Source: a virus (Duplodnaviria; Heunggongvirae; Uroviricota; Caudoviricetes). From it: a stretch of 7,067 nucleotides of DNA. Below, piece by piece: positions 1 to 7,067 of this stretch. A program made the translations under genes and the position numbers. The notes under the pieces were generated by a model. It worked only from the letters and a program-made list of their open reading frames with translations, was not told where the DNA came from and did not search any database. The stretch lies in the IMG/VR virus record IMGVR_UViG_3300029070_000030; one strand, 5' to 3'. Within the stretch, counting starts at the first letter, position 1. Every line of letters starts with the position of its first letter.

Positions 1-303
1 GGCGGCCGTCACTGCCGGGTCAGCCGGGGGCAGACTGCCGGTCACGGCAGCCACCTTTGCGGCCGCGTCGGACGGGGAAACACCAAACACCTTTTCAACC
101 AGTTTCAGGCCGTCACCGGCACCACACTGATTGCAGTACCAGGTGCCGCGCCCCTCCCTGTCATCAAAACGGAAGCGGTCACTCCCGCCACAGACCGGAC
201 AGGGCTGATGACGGTTTTTCAGCACCTGAATCCCCAGCGCCGGGAGAATACGCGGCCAGTGGCCGAGCGCATGGCTGACGGTGGCGGTTACGTTCATTTT
301 CAT
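1..303 (-). CDS. alpha: P4-type replication protein alpha (primase-helicase), N-terminal ~101 codons only; gene continues past the window start
   Basis: Not in the ORF track because it is truncated. Hand translation of the minus strand from ATG 303 gives MKMNVTATVSHALGHWPRILPALGIQVLKNRHQPCPVCGGSDRFRFDDREGRGTWYCNQCGAGDGLKLVEKVFGVSPSDAAAKVAAVTGSLPPADPAVTAA with no stop to position 1. AAGGAG lies 9 nt upstream of the ATG (plus 313-318). The CPVC...CNQC spacing is a zinc-ribbon of the kind found at the N-terminus of P4-type primases. It sits just downstream of the orf106-like gene, as in P4. Confidence 0.8.
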   Translation of the reverse strand, partial: MKMNVTATVSHALGHWPRILPALGIQVLKNRHQPCPVCGGSDRFRFDDREGRGTWYCNQCGAGDGLKLVEKVFGVSPSDAAAKVAAVTGSLPPADPAVTAA

Positions 304-317
304 GGTGTTGTTCTCCT

Positions 318-638
318 TCAGTGCAGTACCGGCGCTTTTATGTGACGGGCACAGAGTTCATCCATCACAACCAGCCCGAGAAAGGACAGCGACGGCGCGG
401 CCTTCAGGGGGCCGGATTCCATTAAATCTTCCAGCAGGGCACAGGCTATCTGACGCCCTTTTTCCTCACCGTGCTGGCGCAGATAAAAGCCTTCCAGCTC
501 AGCGGCGATGGCCGCCTCCAGTGACTCAAGGGTGAGATGCGGGTAGCGGTGCTGACGTTCGCACACGGTCAGCCAGGCACAGGCGACAGCGCGACGGTAA
601 AGGGCAGCGCGTAAGACGGGCGGTAAGGGTGTTTTCAT
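318..638 (-). CDS. P4 orf106-like small protein (possibly the Cnr copy-number regulator homologue; that name is from memory)
   Basis: 106-aa ORF on the minus strand; GGGAGG lies 7 nt upstream of ATG 638; position immediately upstream of alpha matches the P4 left operon; size matches P4 orf106. Confidence 0.65.
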
Positions 639-773
639 TTGTTTTCCTCCCTGTGACAGATGACTGCATTCCGTGCCGGTTGCATTAACTGATAAGGCAT
701 ATCTGCGTCTCCTGAAGACGTGCGTATCCCTGCGCGAATACGCACATTTAATTTTTCGGGTGTCGTTTTTTAA

Positions 774-1229
774 TTACAGATAATTGCGGTAACTGTTATC
801 CGGGGTGATTTCCGGGTCAGGCTCCGTGCGGGGAATTTCCCGCCATTCCCGCGCTACCGGTGCTGCCCGGCTGACCGGAACAGTGTCCTGCGGGTAAATA
901 TCCAGATATTTCTCCCGCCATTTCTGTAATTCCGGGTCTCCGGCCATTTCTTTCAGTACCGCATGCCGGTTTACGGGGCTGCGTTTAAACAGGTCAGGAC
1001 GGTCACAGGTAAATTCCCGCAGAAAACGCCCCAGCGGGATGTCTGTGGTGCGCCCGTCGGCGAGGATACGCACAAGGATACTGAATTTACGGCGGTACGG
1101 GTTCCAGACAATGTCCGGGCAGCGGTACGGCATTTCCCACGGAATACCGTCTTCCAGAATGCCGACCACGGCCACATCGGGAAAACCGGCAGAACGGTAA
1201 ATCTCACCGGGCTGGGGAAAATCAAACAT
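774..1229 (-). CDS. P4 orf151-like hypothetical protein
   Basis: 151-aa ORF on the minus strand; its ATG (1229-1227) overlaps the stop of the upstream epsilon-like ORF (ATGTTTGA), suggesting translational coupling; size and position match P4 orf151 between eps and alpha. Confidence 0.65.
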   Translation of the reverse strand: MFDFPQPGEIYRSAGFPDVAVVGILEDGIPWEMPYRCPDIVWNPYRRKFSILVRILADGRTTDIPLGRFLREFTCDRPDLFKRSPVNRHAVLKEMAGDPELQKWREKYLDIYPQDTVPVSRAAPVAREWREIPRTEPDPEITPDNSYRNYL

Positions 1230-1509
1230 GCGTCCTGTCTCCCCGGTCTTTCTGCTGGGCGAGAAAATCGCGGCACAGGCCTTTGGCTTTCAGCTCATTC
1301 AGCACAAAATCAATATCTTCATTCAGGTAGCTGAAAATATGCGGAATGTAGAGCTGATGCAGGCCGGAGAGTTCACGGTGAATCAAATCACCCCCAACAA
1401 ACTGGGATACGGCGCTGGCGCGGTTGAGCTTATGGTAAGCCTCAATGCTGAGGTGTTCACGGGCGTCATGACGCGCTGAGACGGTCTGAGGGGCTTTTTT
1501 ATTACGCAC
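1222..1509 (-). CDS. eps: Epsilon-like protein (helper-prophage derepression factor of P4 family); 95 aa if initiated at GTG 1509
   Basis: C-terminal part of the 175-aa track ORF 1222..1749. GGAGG (minus-strand sense) lies 6 nt upstream of GTG 1509, giving [30 protein letters not shown]...DRTHV (95 aa). Alternative in-frame ATGs are at 1554 and 1590. The full 1749 start is unlikely because that stretch overlaps another long ORF and is Cys/Pro/Leu-rich. Position upstream of orf151 matches P4 eps. Start codon uncertain. Confidence 0.5.
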
Positions 1510-1837
1510 GGGACACCTCCACCACCGGCAGACGGGCAGCAAGGGAGAGCACATAGTCACGGACAAGGGAACGGCGGGCGCTGCGTTCATCACCGGCGAC
1601 GGTGCGAAGCATACAGATACGGGGATGACGGTCTGCGCGACGGACAGCCGCAAACACAAAGACAAATTCAGGGTGTGAAGGGGTAAGGGTCGTAGCCATA
1701 AGGCAACCTCCGATAACAGCGTAAATGACGCTATCGCCGGAGTTTCCACGCTCGATGGCGATAGCCCAGACGGGGGTGGAAATACCGGCGTTATCGGAAA
1801 CCGGCCAGCCCGGAGGCTGCCCCGCCTGAGCTACCAT
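1502..1837 (-). CDS. Hypothetical protein upstream of eps (111 aa from ATG 1837; may extend to ATG 2101, 199 aa)
   Basis: Part of the 214-aa track ORF 1502..2146. The C-terminal 111 codons ([31 protein letters not shown]...LPVVEVSRA) look protein-like, and the stop TAA 1504-1502 abuts the eps GTG. An upstream in-frame ATGATGATG (2101-2093) overlaps the vis stop, which would give 199 aa, but that N-terminal stretch has odd composition and a lower-GC, palindrome-rich template. No recognisable motif. Low confidence. Confidence 0.3.
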
Positions 1838-2097
1838 TGACTCTGCGGTATAATGAGCGGACGCGGGCAGAATGCACGGAGTGCCATTTGCTCGACTGAC
1901 CACACACCACACCATAATCTGGCGCTCTGTGGCGTTGATTGCGACACAAAAAAAGACGCATGGCGCGTCATATGTCGCCGATAACATACTCGGGTTTCCA
2001 CGCCCGGCTGCCGATTTTGCGGCAGCGGAAAAACTATATCCGCAAATGCCGGAAAAAGGCAAGCCAGAAAAAGGGACTTTTTGCAGAACAGGCATCA

Positions 2098-2364
2098 TCA
2101 TGCGTCGTACCCCCGTTTGCGTCCGGCAATGCGCCCGGCCATCCATGCGGTGACTTCAGAGTGCAGCCAGGCTACATTTTTACCGCCAAGACTCACCTGC
2201 GGCGGAAATTCCCCCTTACGGATGAATTCGTAGATGGTCGAGCGTGACAGGCCGCACAGGTGCATCACTTCCGGCAGACGTAAAAAACGCTCCTGCGTGA
2301 TGTCCGGCAGCGGCATCAGTGGCGTCACAGGGGCGGGAGACGGGGAAGAAAAAACAGCTTGCAT
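2098..2364 (-). CDS. vis: AlpA/Vis-family phage DNA-binding regulator (88 aa), first gene of the leftward operon
   Basis: 88-aa [81 protein letters not shown]; the FLRLPEV...GLSRSTIY...G.FP....G...W core is the AlpA/Vis helix-turn-helix signature. GAGGT lies 6 nt upstream of ATG 2364. It is divergent from sid, as in P4-like satellites where alpA is a core gene. Confidence 0.8.
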
Positions 2365-2466
2365 CGGGCTACCTCGTTAATGTCCATACAGCACCGGATA
2401 AGTCCGTCCGGCTTCGGGTAGCGCTTTATTTTGTGAATATTTTCGGCAGACGCAACAGGGGGGATT

Positions 2467-2484
2467 TGTTCCGGCAGTCTTACA
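2467..2484 (-). promoter_or_regulatory. TGT-N12-ACA dyad, candidate Ogr/Delta-type activator site of a leftward late promoter (P_LL-like) upstream of vis
   Basis: TGT (2467-2469), 12 nt, ACA (2482-2484). The centre is ~110 bp upstream of the vis ATG, consistent with a site centred near -55 and a ~55-nt leader. The motif is only 6 fixed bases, so chance occurrence is possible. Confidence 0.4.
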
Positions 2485-2642
2485 ATGGCTGTGTGTTTTT
2501 TGTACATCAGCGCCAGATAGCTTTAAAACGCTCTGGAAGGAGCTGGAAAAAATTATAGTGAAATACAAATTGTTTTTTCTTATTTATTTCAGTGAATTAA
2601 TAAAAATAAAAAGTAATAAACAGCACAAAAAGCCCATCAACG

Positions 2643-2747
2643 GGTGAACAGTGGTGAACAGACGGTGAACAGTCATTACTGCGATTGTTCACCCTTTAAC
2701 TTACTGTATTACTTATCTTTTTTCTTATGGTGAACAGAGGTGAACAG
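2643..2747. repeat. Iteron cluster: five direct copies of GGTGAACAG plus one inverted TGTTCACC; P4 alpha-binding type-I iteron (TGTTCACC), ori/crr-like
   Basis: GGTGAACAG at 2643-2651, 2653-2661, 2664-2672, 2729-2737 and 2739-2747; inverted TGTTCACC at 2686-2693; embedded in an AT-rich tract (2560-2760). The octamer is the reverse complement of the P4 type-I iteron bound by alpha (from memory of the P4 literature). Confidence 0.7.
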
Positions 2748-2825
2748 TAAAATATAAAAAAACAAACAGTAAGCCGGTTTTTCCTGCGACCTTTTCCTGG
2801 CTTGCCGGTCTGAGGATGAGTCTCC

Positions 2826-2843
2826 TGTGTCAGGGCTGGCACA
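2826..2843 (+). promoter_or_regulatory. TGT-N12-ACA dyad, candidate Ogr/Delta-type activator site of the sid late promoter (P_sid-like)
   Basis: TGT (2826-2828), 12 nt, ACA (2841-2843). The centre is ~80 bp upstream of the sid ATG (2916), consistent with a -55 activator site and a short leader. P2/P4 late promoters carry this dyad (established knowledge). Confidence 0.5.
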
Positions 2844-2915
2844 TCTGCAATGCGTCGTGTTGTTGTCCGGTGTACGTCACAATTTTCTTAACCTGAAGTG
2901 ACGAGGAGCCGGAAA

Positions 2916-3650
2916 ATGTCTGACAACACCATCCCTGAATATCTGCAACCCGCGCTGGCACAACTGGAAAAGGCCAGAGCCGCCCATCTTGAGAACGCCC
3001 GCCTGATGGATGAGACCGTCACGGCCATTGAACGGGCAGAGCAGGAAAAAAATGCGCTGGCGCAGGCCGACGGAAACGACGCTGACGACTGGCGCACGGC
3101 CTTTCGTGCAGCCGGTGGTGTCCTGAGCGACGAGCTGAAACAGCGCCACATTGAGCGCGTGGCACGCCGGGAGCTGGTACAGGAATATGACAATCTGGCC
3201 GTGGTGCTGAATTTTGAACGCGAACGCCTGAAAGGGGCGTGTGACAGCACGGCCACCGCCTACCGGAAGGCACATCATCACCTTCTGAGTCTGTATGCAG
3301 AGCATGAGCTGGAACACGCCCTGAATGAAACCTGTGAGGCGCTTGTCCGGGCAATGCATCTGAGCATTCTGGTACAGGAAAATCCGCTCGCCAACACCAC
3401 CGGCCATCAGGGCTACGTCGCACCGGAAAAGGCTGTCATGCAGCAGGTGAAATCATCGCTGGAACAGAAAATAAAACAGATGCAAATCAGCCTCACCGGC
3501 GAGCCGGTTCTCCGGCTGACCGGACTGTCAGCGGCAACACTCCCGCACATGGATTATGAGGTGGCAGGCACACCGGCACAGCGCAAGGTGTGGCAGGACA
3601 AAATAGACCAGCAGGGAGCAGTGCTTAAGGCCAGAGGACTGCTGTCATGA
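2916..3650 (+). CDS. sid: Sid-like capsid size-determination (external scaffold) protein, 244 aa
   Basis: Track ORF 2898..3650; preferred start is ATG 2916 (MSDNTIPEYLQPALAQLEKARAAH...) with AGGAG 8 nt upstream, while GTG 2898 has no SD. Strongly alpha-helical, Ala/Glu/Leu/Gln-rich sequence. The 244-aa length matches P4 Sid, and the order sid-delta-psu is diagnostic. Confidence 0.8.
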   Translation: MSDNTIPEYLQPALAQLEKARAAHLENARLMDETVTAIERAEQEKNALAQADGNDADDWRTAFRAAGGVLSDELKQRHIERVARRELVQEYDNLAVVLNFERERLKGACDSTATAYRKAHHHLLSLYAEHELEHALNETCEALVRAMHLSILVQENPLANTTGHQGYVAPEKAVMQQVKSSLEQKIKQMQISLTGEPVLRLTGLSAATLPHMDYEVAGTPAQRKVWQDKIDQQGAVLKARGLLS

Positions 3651-3892
3651 TGCGCTGCCCTTTCTGTCGTCATTCAGCGCATACTCGCACCAGCCGGTAT
3701 GTGAGTGACAATGTCAAAGAAAGTTATCTGCAGTGCCAGAATATTTACTGTTCGGCGACATTTAAAACGCATGAGTCAATTTGTGCCGTGATTCGTTCTC
3801 CGGTCACGGAGGAAAAACCAGCACCGGCAAGCACAGCACCGGCTGTTGTCCGAAAAGTTAAAGGCTGTTACAGCTCACCATTTAACCATTAA
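3647..3892 (+). CDS. delta: Ogr/Delta-family zinc-finger late transcriptional activator, single-domain form (81 aa)
   Basis: MMRCPFCRHSAHTRTSRYVSDNVKESYLQCQNIYCSATFKTHESI carries the C-x2-C ... C-x4-C zinc-finger spacing and RTSRY/CQN..CSATF motifs typical of P2 Ogr and P4 Delta. Its ATG overlaps the sid stop (ATGA at 3647-3650); GAGGA lies 8 nt upstream. Confidence 0.85.
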   Translation: MMRCPFCRHSAHTRTSRYVSDNVKESYLQCQNIYCSATFKTHESICAVIRSPVTEEKPAPASTAPAVVRKVKGCYSSPFNH

Positions 3893-3906
3893 TCAGGAGA
3901 CGGGGT

Positions 3907-4479
3907 GTGACCACAATGTCATTACAGCAGGCTTTTGAGGTCTGCCAGAATAACAAAGCGGCATGGCTGCAACGCAAAAATGAGCTGGCAGCGGCCGAAC
4001 AGGAATATCTGCGGCTTCTGTCAGGAGAAGGCAGAAACGTCAGCCGCCTGGACGAATTACGCAATATTATCGAAGTCAGAAAATGGCAGGTGAATCAGGC
4101 CGCCGGTCGTTATATTCGTTCGCATGAAGCCGTTCAGCACATCAGCATCCGCGAGCGGCTGAATGATTTTATGCAGCAGCACGGCACAGCACTGGCGGCC
4201 GCACTGGCACCGGAGCTGATGGGCTACAGTGAGCTGACGACCATTGCCCGAAACTGTGCCATACAGCGTGCCACAGATGCCCTGCGTGAAGCCCTCCTGT
4301 CCTGGCTTGCGAAGGGTGAAAAAATTAATTATTCCGCACAGGATAGCGACATTTTAACGACCATCGGATTCAGGCCTGACGCGGCTTCGGTGGATGACAG
4401 CCGTGAAAAATTCACCCCTGCGCAGAACATGATTTTTTCGCGTAAAAGTGCAGAACTGGCATCACGTCAGTCTGTGTAA
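3907..4479 (+). CDS. psu: Psu-like polarity-suppression / capsid-decoration protein, 190 aa
   Basis: 190-aa ORF; GTG 3907 start with AGGAGA 6 nt upstream (the ATG at 3916 is too far from the SD). Third gene of the sid-delta-psu late operon; the length equals P4 Psu. It is followed by a hairpin and then cos. Confidence 0.85.
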   Translation: MTTMSLQQAFEVCQNNKAAWLQRKNELAAAEQEYLRLLSGEGRNVSRLDELRNIIEVRKWQVNQAAGRYIRSHEAVQHISIRERLNDFMQQHGTALAAALAPELMGYSELTTIARNCAIQRATDALREALLSWLAKGEKINYSAQDSDILTTIGFRPDAASVDDSREKFTPAQNMIFSRKSAELASRQSV

Positions 4480-4512
4480 AATTCCCCGAAAATCCGCCTG
4501 TTTTTACTGAAA

Positions 4513-4543
4513 AAAGCCATGCATCGATAAGGTGCATGGCTTT
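4513..4543 (+). terminator. Candidate intrinsic terminator of the late operon downstream of psu
   Basis: Perfect inverted repeat AGCCATGCA (4515-4523) / TGCATGGCT (4533-4541) with a 9-nt loop, extendable by A:T pairs to ~11 bp, followed by TTT and a further TTTT at 4551-4554. The U-tract is interrupted, so efficiency is uncertain. Confidence 0.4.
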
Positions 4544-4643
4544 GCATGCGTTTTCCCGCCTCATTTCCTGCAGATTACGCCGCGCCCGACGCGGCGTGAG
4601 CGTGTCAGTGCAACTGCATTAAAACCGCCCCGCAAAGCGGGCG

Positions 4644-4662
4644 GGCGAGGCGGGGAAAGCAC
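4644..4662. other. cos site: 19-nt P2/P4-type cohesive-end sequence GGCGAGGCGGGGAAAGCAC
   Basis: Exact match at 4644-4662 to the conserved 19-nt cohesive end shared by P2, 186 and P4 (recalled from the literature). It lies between psu and int, where cos sits in P4, and is flanked by GC-rich dyads (4578-4596 and ~4625-4644). Confidence 0.8.
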
Positions 4663-4687
4663 TGCGCGCGAATGGATGATTTTCAAT

Positions 4688-5644
4688 TTAAATGCCAAGC
4701 AATAATTTTTTCTTGAAGTAGCTTTCAAAGCTATCCTTATCACCATTGAATACACCCATCAACTCATCAGAGTTTATTATTATATTCATTATTTCTCTTA
4801 AATAATTATCAAGTTTAATGCTTTCCTCTGGTAGTTTTCCAACTTTAGATGATTTTAAACTGTCACCATGAGTAACTTTAGAGCGAATGTTATAGAATGA
4901 CTTTATTTCATCAAATGTAGTGATAGGATCAAAGTTATATGGTTTTAAGAAAATAGCGACCCGCTCAGAAAGTTTATGAGAAAGTTCAGAGCTATCTGTT
5001 GAGAATAAGCTCTCAAGTGCGCTGCAGTAGTGAGATATTTTCATTGCGGGATCGAAATCTCGCTTTGCTGATCTTATAAAACTCAATGCCCTTCCATAGC
5101 GAGAATATTTTGAATCAACAAAAGAATCAAAAATAGTAGAGTTATTATTATATAGGTGAGTTTGAACTCGATGGTTTATATCTGCCCACTTAGTTAAGTC
5201 ACTCCTGTTAAATTCAACATCAATATGGCGATAACCGCTTGCCATCGTAAATAAACTTAATAGACTATTGTTCGACCATTCAGAATATGCTTTGCGATCA
5301 GTTTTATTGCAATATGCAATTTCGCAAAGCATGCCATTATCCTTGATAAACCAAGAAGTATTTATAAGCATATCTATCCACAAAAGCCAAGTCGTCAATG
5401 CAAAATTGCTTTTTGTAGACGGCTGAAAAAAATCATCTTTAAGATCGGCAAAAATTATGTGATTTGCATTGTATAAATGTTCATATTCAATGATACCAGT
5501 AAAAGGCTTAATATCTTTGTTAATTATTTTTCTAATTTTTGCCCTATCTCTTATTAGAGTAACTCCGGGAAGGAGGTCAAAATCATCGAAATTATCCCCT
5601 ATAACATTCATAAATCTTAATGTTGTGTAGAATTTAAAGTGCAT
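4688..5644 (-). CDS. Hypothetical protein, 318 aa, AT-rich hotspot cargo; function unknown (candidate anti-phage defence / abortive-infection protein)
   Basis: 318-aa ORF with no internal stops in strongly AT-rich DNA that contrasts sharply with the GC-rich P4 backbone. GGAG lies 7 nt upstream of ATG 5644, and the start overlaps the last codons of int. Located between cos and int, the variable hotspot of P4-like satellites. I recognise no family; the only motif noted is a possible Rx4H (R254...H259, NIRSKVTHGD), which is weak. Confidence 0.8.
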   Translation of the reverse strand: MHFKFYTTLRFMNVIGDNFDDFDLLPGVTLIRDRAKIRKIINKDIKPFTGIIEYEHLYNANHIIFADLKDDFFQPSTKSNFALTTWLLWIDMLINTSWFIKDNGMLCEIAYCNKTDRKAYSEWSNNSLLSLFTMASGYRHIDVEFNRSDLTKWADINHRVQTHLYNNNSTIFDSFVDSKYSRYGRALSFIRSAKRDFDPAMKISHYCSALESLFSTDSSELSHKLSERVAIFLKPYNFDPITTFDEIKSFYNIRSKVTHGDSLKSSKVGKLPEESIKLDNYLREIMNIIINSDELMGVFNGDKDSFESYFKKKLLLGI

Positions 5645-6992: not shown

Positions 6993-7067
6993 TGGCGGAA
7001 GATCACAGGAGTCGAACCTGCCCGGGACCGCTGGCGGCCCCAACTGGATTTGAAGTCCAGCCGCCTC
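6993..7067 (-). tRNA. selC: tRNA-Sec (selC), 3' 75 nt including CCA; 5' ~20 nt lie beyond the window end
   Basis: Reverse complement of 6993-7067 reads GAGGCGGCTGGACTTCAAATCCAGTTGGGGCCGCCAGCGGTCCCGGGCAGGTTCGACTCCTGTGATCTTCCGCCA, which matches my recollection of positions 21-95 of E. coli selC (anticodon loop CTTCAAATC with UCA, long variable arm, T-arm GGTTCGACTCC, 3' CCA). Confidence 0.9.

What the first reader, a model, noticed from the sequence alone, without database searches (positions are those of the whole stretch)
2826..2843. TGT-N12-ACA dyad positioned as a Delta/Ogr-activated sid promoter
The dyad sits ~80 bp upstream of the sid ATG, matching the architecture of P2/P4 late promoters where the activator site is centred near -55. 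No strong -35 is visible, as is typical of activator-dependent promoters. This supports a still-functional helper-responsive late operon.
Basis: partly seen in the sequence, partly recalled or inferred. Interest (0 to 1): 0.4.

Follow-up and report, generated by a model that had tools for sequence, protein, structure and literature searches.

The report
Known P4 satellite sid late promoter
The dyad is real and is the activator-binding site of the well-studied late ("sid") promoter of satellite phage P4; this E. coli prophage carries a base-for-base copy of it, so the finding is correct but ordinary.

Summary
TGT-N12-ACA is at 2826-2843 as stated. Its centre is 81.5 nt upstream of the sid ATG (2916).

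As a bare pattern it is barely above chance: 4 matches in the window against 1.5 expected. Context settles the question.
- Window 2730-2925 is 100% identical to the phage P4 sid promoter region.
- All 18 diverged P4-like satellites examined (Sid 57-67% identical, about ten genera) have an exact dyad 85-91 nt before sid. The half-sites (TGTG.CA / T...ACA) are invariant and the four central bases vary.
- An invariant CA(C/G)AAT -10 element (2878-2883) and a conserved A at 2890 predict a transcription start that puts the dyad centre at -55.5. P2's annotated late promoters have the same geometry.
- No -35 element is present.
- sid, an 81-aa single-zinc-finger delta and psu are all intact.

A second exact dyad lies at 2864-2881, centred at about -17.5. 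The dyad of the leftward late promoter lies at 2467-2484. Cox acts at that leftward promoter, not at sid.

The feature is already known and interest is low. Activation itself and the transcription start were not measured.

The parts
2826..2843 (.). Site I: the TGT-N12-ACA dyad of the sid promoter, which is the Ogr/Delta activator site. It is centred at 2834.5, or -55.5 from the predicted start.
   Evidence: identical to P4 9493-9510; present 85-91 nt before sid in 18 of 18 diverged loci, with invariant half-sites and a variable centre (2833-2836).
2864..2881 (.). Site II: a second exact TGT-N12-ACA dyad (TGTCCGGTGTACGTCACA), centred at 2872.5, about -17.5. It overlaps the -10 element.
   Evidence: identical to P4 9531-9548. 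In diverged loci it reads TGT-N12-AGA; the left TGT (inside TTGTTGT, 2861-2866) is invariant. Its role as a second Delta site is from my memory of Julien & Calendar 1995 and Reiter et al. 1998, which are not held.
2878..2883 (+). -10-like hexamer CACAAT (CAGAAT in relatives; 4 of 6 match TATAAT).
   Evidence: C, A, -, A, A, T invariant in 19 of 19 sequences. There is no -35 partner.
2890..2890 (+). Predicted sid transcription start (A, +/-2 nt).
   Evidence: Inference: it lies 7 nt after the -10 element, A is conserved in 18 of 19 sequences, and it lies 55.5 nt from the site I centre, as in P2 pO, pP and pV. Not measured.
2903..2908 (+). Shine-Dalgarno GAGGAG for sid.
   Evidence: X02534 annotates the ribosome-binding site at the equivalent position. 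GAGGA is conserved in most of the diverged loci.
2916..3650 (+). sid (244 aa), the capsid size-determination scaffold and first gene of the late operon.
   Evidence: Its DNA lies within the 95.9%-identical colinear block with P4.
3647..3892 (+). delta (81 aa), a single Ogr/Delta zinc-finger activator (C4, C7, C30, C35). It is the element's own activator for this promoter.
   Evidence: PF04606, E=1.4e-18; only 51% identical to the N-terminal half of P4 Delta; the same short form occurs in all diverged satellites.
3907..4479 (+). psu (190 aa from GTG 3907; RefSeq starts it at ATG 3916), the last gene of the operon.
   Evidence: 95% identical to P4 Psu; PF07455.
2467..2484 (.). Dyad of the divergent leftward late promoter P_LL (TGTTCCGGCAGTCTTACA). 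It lies about 54 nt upstream of a predicted leftward start near 2421-2422 and drives vis/alpA (2364-2098).
   Evidence: The -10-like TATTCACAAAAT is near-invariant across the loci.

Best explanation
The dyad at 2826-2843 is the upstream activator site (site I) of Psid, the rightward late promoter of a P4-family satellite prophage integrated at tRNA-Sec in E. coli.

The promoter has a weak -10 element (CACAAT, 2878-2883) and no -35, so RNA polymerase alone should use it poorly. A small zinc-finger activator of the Ogr/Delta family binds the dyad centred about 55 bp upstream of the start. That activator is either the helper phage's Ogr or the satellite's own 81-aa Delta, encoded two genes downstream. 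It recruits RNA polymerase through the alpha subunit and so switches on sid-delta-psu. Because delta lies in the operon, activation should reinforce itself. A second dyad at about -18 (2864-2881) probably modulates the response.

Shown here: the sequence, its identity to P4 Psid, positional conservation, absence of a -35, and an intact operon and activator.

Inferred: the start site at about 2890, activator binding, and the alpha-subunit contact.
For: 1. The dyad is present at the stated coordinates.
2. Window 2730-2925 is 100% identical to P4 X51522 upstream of sid. The window is colinear with P4 over 1-3769 at 95.9% identity.
3. Phylogenetic footprint. All 18 diverged P4-like loci (Sid 57-67% identical; Scandinavium, Mangrovibacter, Enterobacter, Citrobacter, Kluyvera, Klebsiella, Raoultella, Buttiauxella and others) carry an exact TGT-N12-ACA 85-91 nt before the sid ATG. 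The background density elsewhere in these loci is 0.24 per kb. Positions 2826-2829, 2831-2832, 2837 and 2841-2843 are invariant, while the centre 2833-2836 varies.
4. Geometry. The invariant CA.AAT at 2878-2883 and a conserved A at 2890 put the dyad centre at -55.5. The P2 RefSeq annotates activator sites 55.5 nt (pO, pP, pV) and 57-59 nt (pF) from mapped starts. P2 pO/pP shares the left half TGTGTCAG with the window.
5. No sigma-70-like promoter in 2300-3000.
6. The cognate activator is present: PF04606 with an intact CX2CX22CX4C motif.
7. Literature. Ogr binds inverted repeats centred at about -55 and needs a contact with the RNA polymerase alpha subunit (PMC3152322). The TGT-N12-ACA consensus and the zinc motif are given in PMC3931495. 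psu-delta-sid is one operon under the sid promoter (PMC13586616). The phiR73 short Delta activates a P2 late promoter in synthetic circuits (bioRxiv 10.1101/2022.11.09.515794).
Against: No transcription start, binding or activation was measured for this element.

The primary P4 papers could not be read, so the -55/-18 footprint data rest on my recollection and on secondary citations.

The bare pattern is weakly specific: 4 matches against 1.5 expected in the window. P2's own annotated activator sites are not exact TGT-N12-ACA, and P2's five exact matches lie elsewhere.

The resident activator is a short Delta only 51% identical to the N-terminal half of P4 Delta. Its action on this P4-type promoter is inferred, not shown.
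Confidence: 0.93

Rival explanations
1. The dyad belongs to the P4 replication origin, for example as a site for the alpha primase-helicase or an unwinding element, and is not a transcriptional activator site.
For: The P4 records annotate 'origin of DNA replication' across 9086-9809, which spans the dyad. The alpha-binding type 1 repeats (GGTGAACA) lie only 80-190 bp upstream, at window 2640-2750.
Against: The annotated ori repeats are a different motif and end at about 2750. The other alpha-binding region, crr, carries type 1 repeats, but no exact dyad lies within crr (4291-4590); the nearest, at 4642, falls inside the alpha gene. The dyad keeps a fixed distance to the sid -10 and ATG across genera. 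The same kind of element sits at -55 of P2 late promoters, which have no P4 ori.
Confidence: 0.03
2. The dyad is a chance match to a loose 6-base pattern and has no function of its own.
For:: 4 matches against 1.5 expected, and 12 of 200 shuffles reach 4; exact matches in P2 are not at its late promoters.
Against: It is present at the same position in 18 of 18 diverged loci, with invariant half-sites around a variable centre. It is 100% identical to P4 Psid.
Confidence: 0.02
3. The inverted repeat acts as a DNA or RNA hairpin, such as a terminator or processing site for read-through transcripts from the ori side, rather than as a protein-binding site.
For: It could form a 7-8 bp stem (sequence).
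Against: No T-tract follows it, and the terminator scan does not report it. Position 5 of the half-sites is never complementary (T/G in P4-type sequences, C/C in the others). No compensatory changes are seen and the loop is only 2-4 nt. It lies upstream of the predicted sid start.
Confidence: 0.01

Closest known systems
Psid, the sid late promoter of satellite phage P4 (X51522 / NC_001609, about 9440-9583)
   Same: Identical in sequence over window 2730-2925: both dyads, the -10 element, the ribosome-binding site and the start of sid. It has the same neighbours: ori type 1 repeats upstream and sid-delta-psu downstream.
   Different: The activator gene downstream is an 81-aa single-domain delta instead of P4's 166-aa tandem delta, and the homology break falls exactly at the delta ATG. 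The element sits at tRNA-Sec with a different integrase, and a HEPN-domain protein gene occupies the cos-int hotspot where P4 carries gop/beta/cII.
The four late promoters of helper phage P2 (pP, pO, pV, pF; NC_001895)
   Same: An activator site centred 55.5-59 nt upstream of the mapped starts. The left half-site TGTGTCAG of pO/pP is identical to the window. They depend on an Ogr-family zinc-finger activator (PMC3152322, PMC3931495).
   Different: The P2 sites are imperfect dyads (right half ..GCCA, or a different spacing at pV). The window's site I is an exact and more extended dyad. P2 promoters show no second exact dyad at -18.
sid promoters of other P4-like satellites of Enterobacterales (L005-L023)
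   Same: Same layout: a conserved upstream block, the dyad at about -90 from the ATG, TTGTTGT, CA.AAT, the ribosome-binding site, sid and a short delta.
   Different: In these the -18 element is TGT-N12-AGA, not an exact dyad, and the dyad centre is T-rich or GAAC rather than GGGC.
Retronphage phiR73 (a P4-like satellite at selC with a short Delta).
   Same: Integration next to tRNA-Sec, a short Delta, and a reverse-transcriptase gene beside alpha in the near-identical genome NZ_CP076259.
   Different: The reverse transcriptase there is annotated as a TIR-domain anti-phage RT. Identity to phiR73 itself was not tested.

Membership tests
Ogr/Delta-dependent late promoters of P2/P4-type elements | A partial dyad of the TGT-N12-ACA type upstream of the core promoter | tested here: met
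   exact dyad at 2826-2843, with 7 of 9 positions per half symmetric.
Ogr/Delta-dependent late promoters of P2/P4-type elements | Dyad centred about 55 bp upstream of the transcription start (predicted geometry) | tested here: met
   The conserved -10 (2878-2883) and conserved A at 2890 give -55.5. The P2 annotated sites lie at 55.5-59 nt. The start here is predicted, not measured.
Ogr/Delta-dependent late promoters of P2/P4-type elements | An experimentally mapped start and dependence on the activator in vivo | not testable with these tools
   Needs 5' mapping and reporter assays. The primary P4 papers are not held.
Ogr/Delta-dependent late promoters of P2/P4-type elements | A weak core promoter with no recognisable -35 | tested here: met
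   no sigma-70-like site in 2300-3000. The -10 element matches 4 of 6.
Ogr/Delta-dependent late promoters of P2/P4-type elements | A cognate Ogr/Delta zinc-finger activator (CX2CX22CX4C) available | tested here: met
   (PF04606, 67 bits against a cut-off of 26.3); motif C4, C7, C30, C35. The motif definition is from PMC3931495.
P4 Psid specifically | Sequence identity with the characterised P4 promoter and the same flanking genes | tested here: met
   100% identity over 2730-2925; colinear with P4.
P4 Psid specifically | A second activator site near -18 | tested here: met
   exact dyad at 2864-2881, centred at -17.5, identical to P4. That Delta binds it is from memory only.
P4-like satellite (core gene set int, psu, delta, sid, alpA, epsilon/ash, alpha; PMC8628076) | Core genes present in the P4 order | tested here: met
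   int, Psu, Ogr_Delta, Sid, AlpA, Ash and the derepression protein lie in the window. Alpha lies just outside it in the 99.7%-identical genome.

The most novel reading that the evidence does not exclude
The sid promoter region may hold a further, undescribed control layer.

- A 30-bp block at 2783-2812 (-107 to -78) is as conserved across genera as the dyad. 17 nt of it recur, 16 of 17 identical, over the -35 region of the leftward early promoter P_LE (2074-2058). This could be a shared binding site for a satellite regulator such as Vis/AlpA that couples early and late transcription.
- This element pairs a P4-type two-dyad promoter with a single-domain Delta. The -18 site may therefore be used differently here, for example for auto-limitation, than with P4's tandem Delta.
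Probability: 0.15. Interest if true: 0.3.

Novelty: already known. Interest (0 to 1): 0.08.

Why it matters
It matters little beyond annotation. It confirms that this tRNA-Sec prophage keeps the complete helper-responsive switch of a P4-type satellite: Psid, P_LL, delta, sid, psu and cos. The element can therefore plausibly still be mobilised by a P2-like helper, carrying its HEPN hotspot gene with it. P4-type Psid at 95% identity or more occurs in 982 of 5,426 complete E. coli genomes. That makes the promoter a common and reliable landmark for annotating such satellites. The cross-genus footprint gives a sharper consensus (TGTG-Y-CA-N4-T-G-S-C-ACA, 90 nt before sid) than the loose TGT-N12-ACA.

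Tried and rejected
1. Reading the primary papers. Reiter 1998 (PMC107552), Julien & Calendar 1995 (PMC177091) and two reviews under PMC ids I guessed are not held. The -55/-18 footprint statements therefore rest on memory and on secondary sources.
2. GenBank promoter annotation for P4. There is none for Psid in X51522 or NC_001609. The old X02534 'consensus -10' feature maps onto the dyad itself (TGTCAGG, L002 1950-1956) and is not a credible -10.
3. Using the exact pattern as a detector in P2. It fails: the five exact matches are not late promoters, and the annotated activator sites are imperfect. The pattern alone is neither necessary nor sufficient.
4. A sigma-70 promoter reading of the conserved upstream block. 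It has a -35-like TTGCCG at 2802-2807, but no -10 follows at 16-18 bp (sequence).
5. The hairpin/terminator reading. Rejected because there is no T-tract and no covariation.
6. The Rfam scan found nothing in 2365-2915.
7. The fourth dyad, at 761-778 between ORF151 and ORF106, was not followed up and is probably chance.

Full report
OBSERVATION. The sid ATG is at 2916. The ORF list shows a GTG-started ORF from 2898 whose seventh codon is the ATG of MSDNTIPEYL, and this matches P4 sid. The dyad therefore starts 90 nt and is centred 81.5 nt upstream of the ATG. Symmetry extends beyond TGT/ACA to 7 of 9 positions per half.

As a bare pattern the match is only marginal. There are four matches in 7,067 bp against 1.5 expected, and 12 of 200 shuffles reach four. 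Three of the four (2467, 2826, 2864) lie in the 551-bp vis-sid intergenic region, where about 0.12 would be expected by my arithmetic. The consensus scan finds no sigma-70-type promoter in 2300-3000, so 'no strong -35' holds.

WHAT THE WINDOW IS. The window is part of a P4-family satellite prophage in an E. coli chromosome.
- It is 99.7% identical over its full length to NZ_CP076259, where it sits next to tRNA-Sec. Rfam finds the 3' part of tRNA-Sec at 6997-7067.
- It is colinear with phage P4 from ORF106 through sid (window 1-3769, 95.9% identity) and again through psu and cos (3922-4643, 96.3%).
- Pfam supports Ogr_Delta, Psu, AlpA, Ash, the epsilon 'Derepression' family and a tyrosine integrase.
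- The gene order is ORF106, ORF151, epsilon, cI/ash region, vis/alpA (all minus strand), the ori type 1 repeats (GGTGAACA, 2640-2750), then sid, delta and psu (plus strand), cos, a HEPN-domain gene and int.

IDENTITY WITH THE KNOWN PROMOTER. A pairwise alignment of the vis-sid intergenic region with P4 X51522 shows 100% identity from about window 2730 through the first codons of sid. This stretch includes the dyad (P4 9493-9510), a second exact dyad TGTCCGGTGTACGTCACA at window 2864-2881 (P4 9531-9548), and the ribosome-binding site. The feature is therefore the P4 sid promoter itself, not merely something that resembles it.

INDEPENDENT COMPARATIVE EVIDENCE. I collected Sid homologues, aligned 16 of them and fetched 20 loci from species-representative genomes. 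Eighteen are diverged P4-like elements with enough upstream sequence. Their Sid proteins are 57-67% identical to the window's, and they come from Scandinavium, Mangrovibacter, Enterobacter, Citrobacter, Kluyvera, Klebsiella, Raoultella, Buttiauxella and others.
- Every one has an exact TGT-N12-ACA whose first base lies 85-91 nt (mostly exactly 90) before the sid ATG.
- Elsewhere in these loci the pattern occurs at 0.24 per kb.
- Column counts over 19 distinct sequences show a classical protein-site footprint. TGTG (2826-2829), CA (2831-2832), T (2837) and ACA (2841-2843) are invariant. The four central bases 2833-2836 are free (majority base in at most 11 of 19).
- Position 5 of the two half-sites is never complementary and shows no compensatory change, which argues against a hairpin function.

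GEOMETRY. The same alignment shows an invariant CA(C/G)AAT at 2878-2883 (4 of 6 to TATAAT) and an A at 2890 conserved in 18 of 19 sequences.
- Taking 2890 as the start puts the site I centre at -55.5 and the second dyad centre at -17.5.
- The P2 RefSeq record annotates activator-binding sites and mapped starts for its four late promoters. The centre-to-start distances are 55.5 (pO), 55.5 (pP), 55.5 (pV) and 57-59 (pF).
- P2 pO/pP shares the left half TGTGTCAG with the window.
- PMC3152322 states that Ogr binds inverted repeats centred at about -55 and needs a contact with the RNA polymerase alpha subunit.
- PMC3931495 gives the TGT-N12-ACA consensus and the CX2CX22CX4C zinc motif.
- From memory (Julien & Calendar 1995; Reiter et al. 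1998; neither is held), P4 Delta footprints at -55 and -18 in Psid. This fits the two dyads, but I could not verify it here.

A caution on the pattern. P2's own activator sites are not exact TGT-N12-ACA: pO/pP reads TGTGTCAGTGATAAGCCA and pF reads TGTGCTGTCGATTAGCCA. The five exact matches in P2 lie elsewhere. The bare pattern is thus neither necessary nor sufficient. Position and homology carry the argument.

THE ACTIVATOR AND THE OPERON. sid (244 aa), delta (81 aa) and psu (190 aa) are open and overlap or abut as in P4. Delta matches PF04606 and has C4, C7, C30 and C35 in the CX2CX22CX4C arrangement.
- It is not P4's 166-aa tandem Delta. It is only 51% identical to the N-terminal half of that protein, and DNA homology with P4 breaks exactly at the delta ATG and resumes in psu.
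- All 18 diverged satellites carry this short form (67-87 aa, one zinc finger), so P4's tandem Delta is the exception.
- A short Delta from phiR73 is used as an activator of a P2 late promoter in synthetic circuits.

MECHANISM. The following is what I think most likely; inferred steps are marked.
- The weak, -35-less core promoter (shown) is silent until an Ogr-family activator binds site I (inferred from identity to P4, from conservation and from the literature).
- The activator recruits RNA polymerase through alpha-CTD (literature).
- Transcription starts near 2890 (inferred) and yields sid-delta-psu.
- Delta then feeds back on Psid and on the leftward late promoter (inferred).
- Site II overlaps the -10 element and probably tunes the output (speculative).

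RIVALS. Three alternatives are disfavoured:
- An ori function. The P4 'rep_origin' feature does span the site, but the alpha-binding repeats are a different motif and no exact dyad lies within crr (the nearest, at 4642, is inside the alpha gene).
- Chance. This is contradicted by the conservation pattern.
- A hairpin. There is no T-tract and no covariation.

VERDICT. The feature is a textbook element present at 95% identity or more in 982 of 5,426 complete E. coli genomes. It is already known, and interest is low. Functionality ('still functional') remains an inference from intact sequence.

Noticed in passing
window 2864-2881: A second exact TGT-N12-ACA dyad lies 38 bp downstream of the reported one. 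It is centred at about -17.5 and overlaps the -10 element. It is identical in P4. In diverged P4-like satellites it reads TGT-N12-AGA with the left TGT invariant.
   Followed up: yes
window 2783-2812 and 2058-2074 (minus strand): A 30-bp block (TTTCCTGCGACCTTTTCCTGGCTTGCCGG) at -107 to -78 of Psid is as conserved across genera as the dyad. 17 nt of it recur, 16 of 17 identical, over the -35 region of the leftward early promoter P_LE (-10 TATAGT at 2038-2033). This may be a shared regulator site; its function is unknown.
   Followed up: partly
window 2505-2555: The three tandem P4 'ori type 2 repeats' (P4 9176-9205; they fit the TTAAAG/CNCA cox-box consensus of PMC3936717) are replaced by unrelated sequence, and only one TTAAAG box is left. 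Activation of P_LL by P2 Cox may be altered, or tuned to a different helper.
   Followed up: partly
window 2467-2484: The P_LL dyad is an exact TGT-N12-ACA only in P4-type elements. Diverged satellites have TGT-N11/13-ACA at that position, while the -10-like TATTCACAAAAT and an upstream TGTTGC are near-invariant.
   Followed up: partly
window 3647-3921: There is a mosaic junction. Identity to P4 drops exactly at the delta ATG and resumes in psu. The 81-aa single-finger delta replaces P4's 166-aa tandem delta. The short form is the norm in P4-like satellites.
   Followed up: yes
window 4688-5644 (minus strand): A 318-aa ORF with no Pfam hit, which RefSeq calls 'HEPN domain-containing protein', occupies the cos-int hotspot where P4-like satellites usually carry anti-phage defence genes (PMC13586616). 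Its 3' end overlaps the int start by 11 nt.
   Followed up: no
window 1754-1841, 1949-2039 (minus strand): Rfam finds the C4 antisense RNA, isrK and the c4 a1/b1 target region. C4 presumably corresponds to the P4 CI immunity RNA (my inference). The satellite's RNA-based immunity system therefore appears intact.
   Followed up: no
window 4597-4678: This stretch is 88-95% identical to the cos region of P2-like phages. It is the satellite's packaging site, located between psu and the HEPN gene.
   Followed up: no
window 761-778: A fourth exact TGT-N12-ACA (TGTCGTTTTTTAATTACA) lies between ORF151 and ORF106. It is probably a chance match.
   Followed up: no
L004 (URND01000141.1): A contig labelled 'uncultured Clostridiales bacterium' carries a P4-identical sid/delta region (Sid 99% identical, tandem 166-aa delta). 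It is probably a mis-binned Enterobacterial contig.
   Followed up: no
L003 1752-3383 (NZ_CP076259): In the 99.7%-identical genome, a 'TIR domain-containing anti-phage reverse transcriptase' lies beyond alpha, at the far end of the element. This recalls retronphage phiR73, which also sits at selC (the phiR73 comparison is from memory).
   Followed up: no
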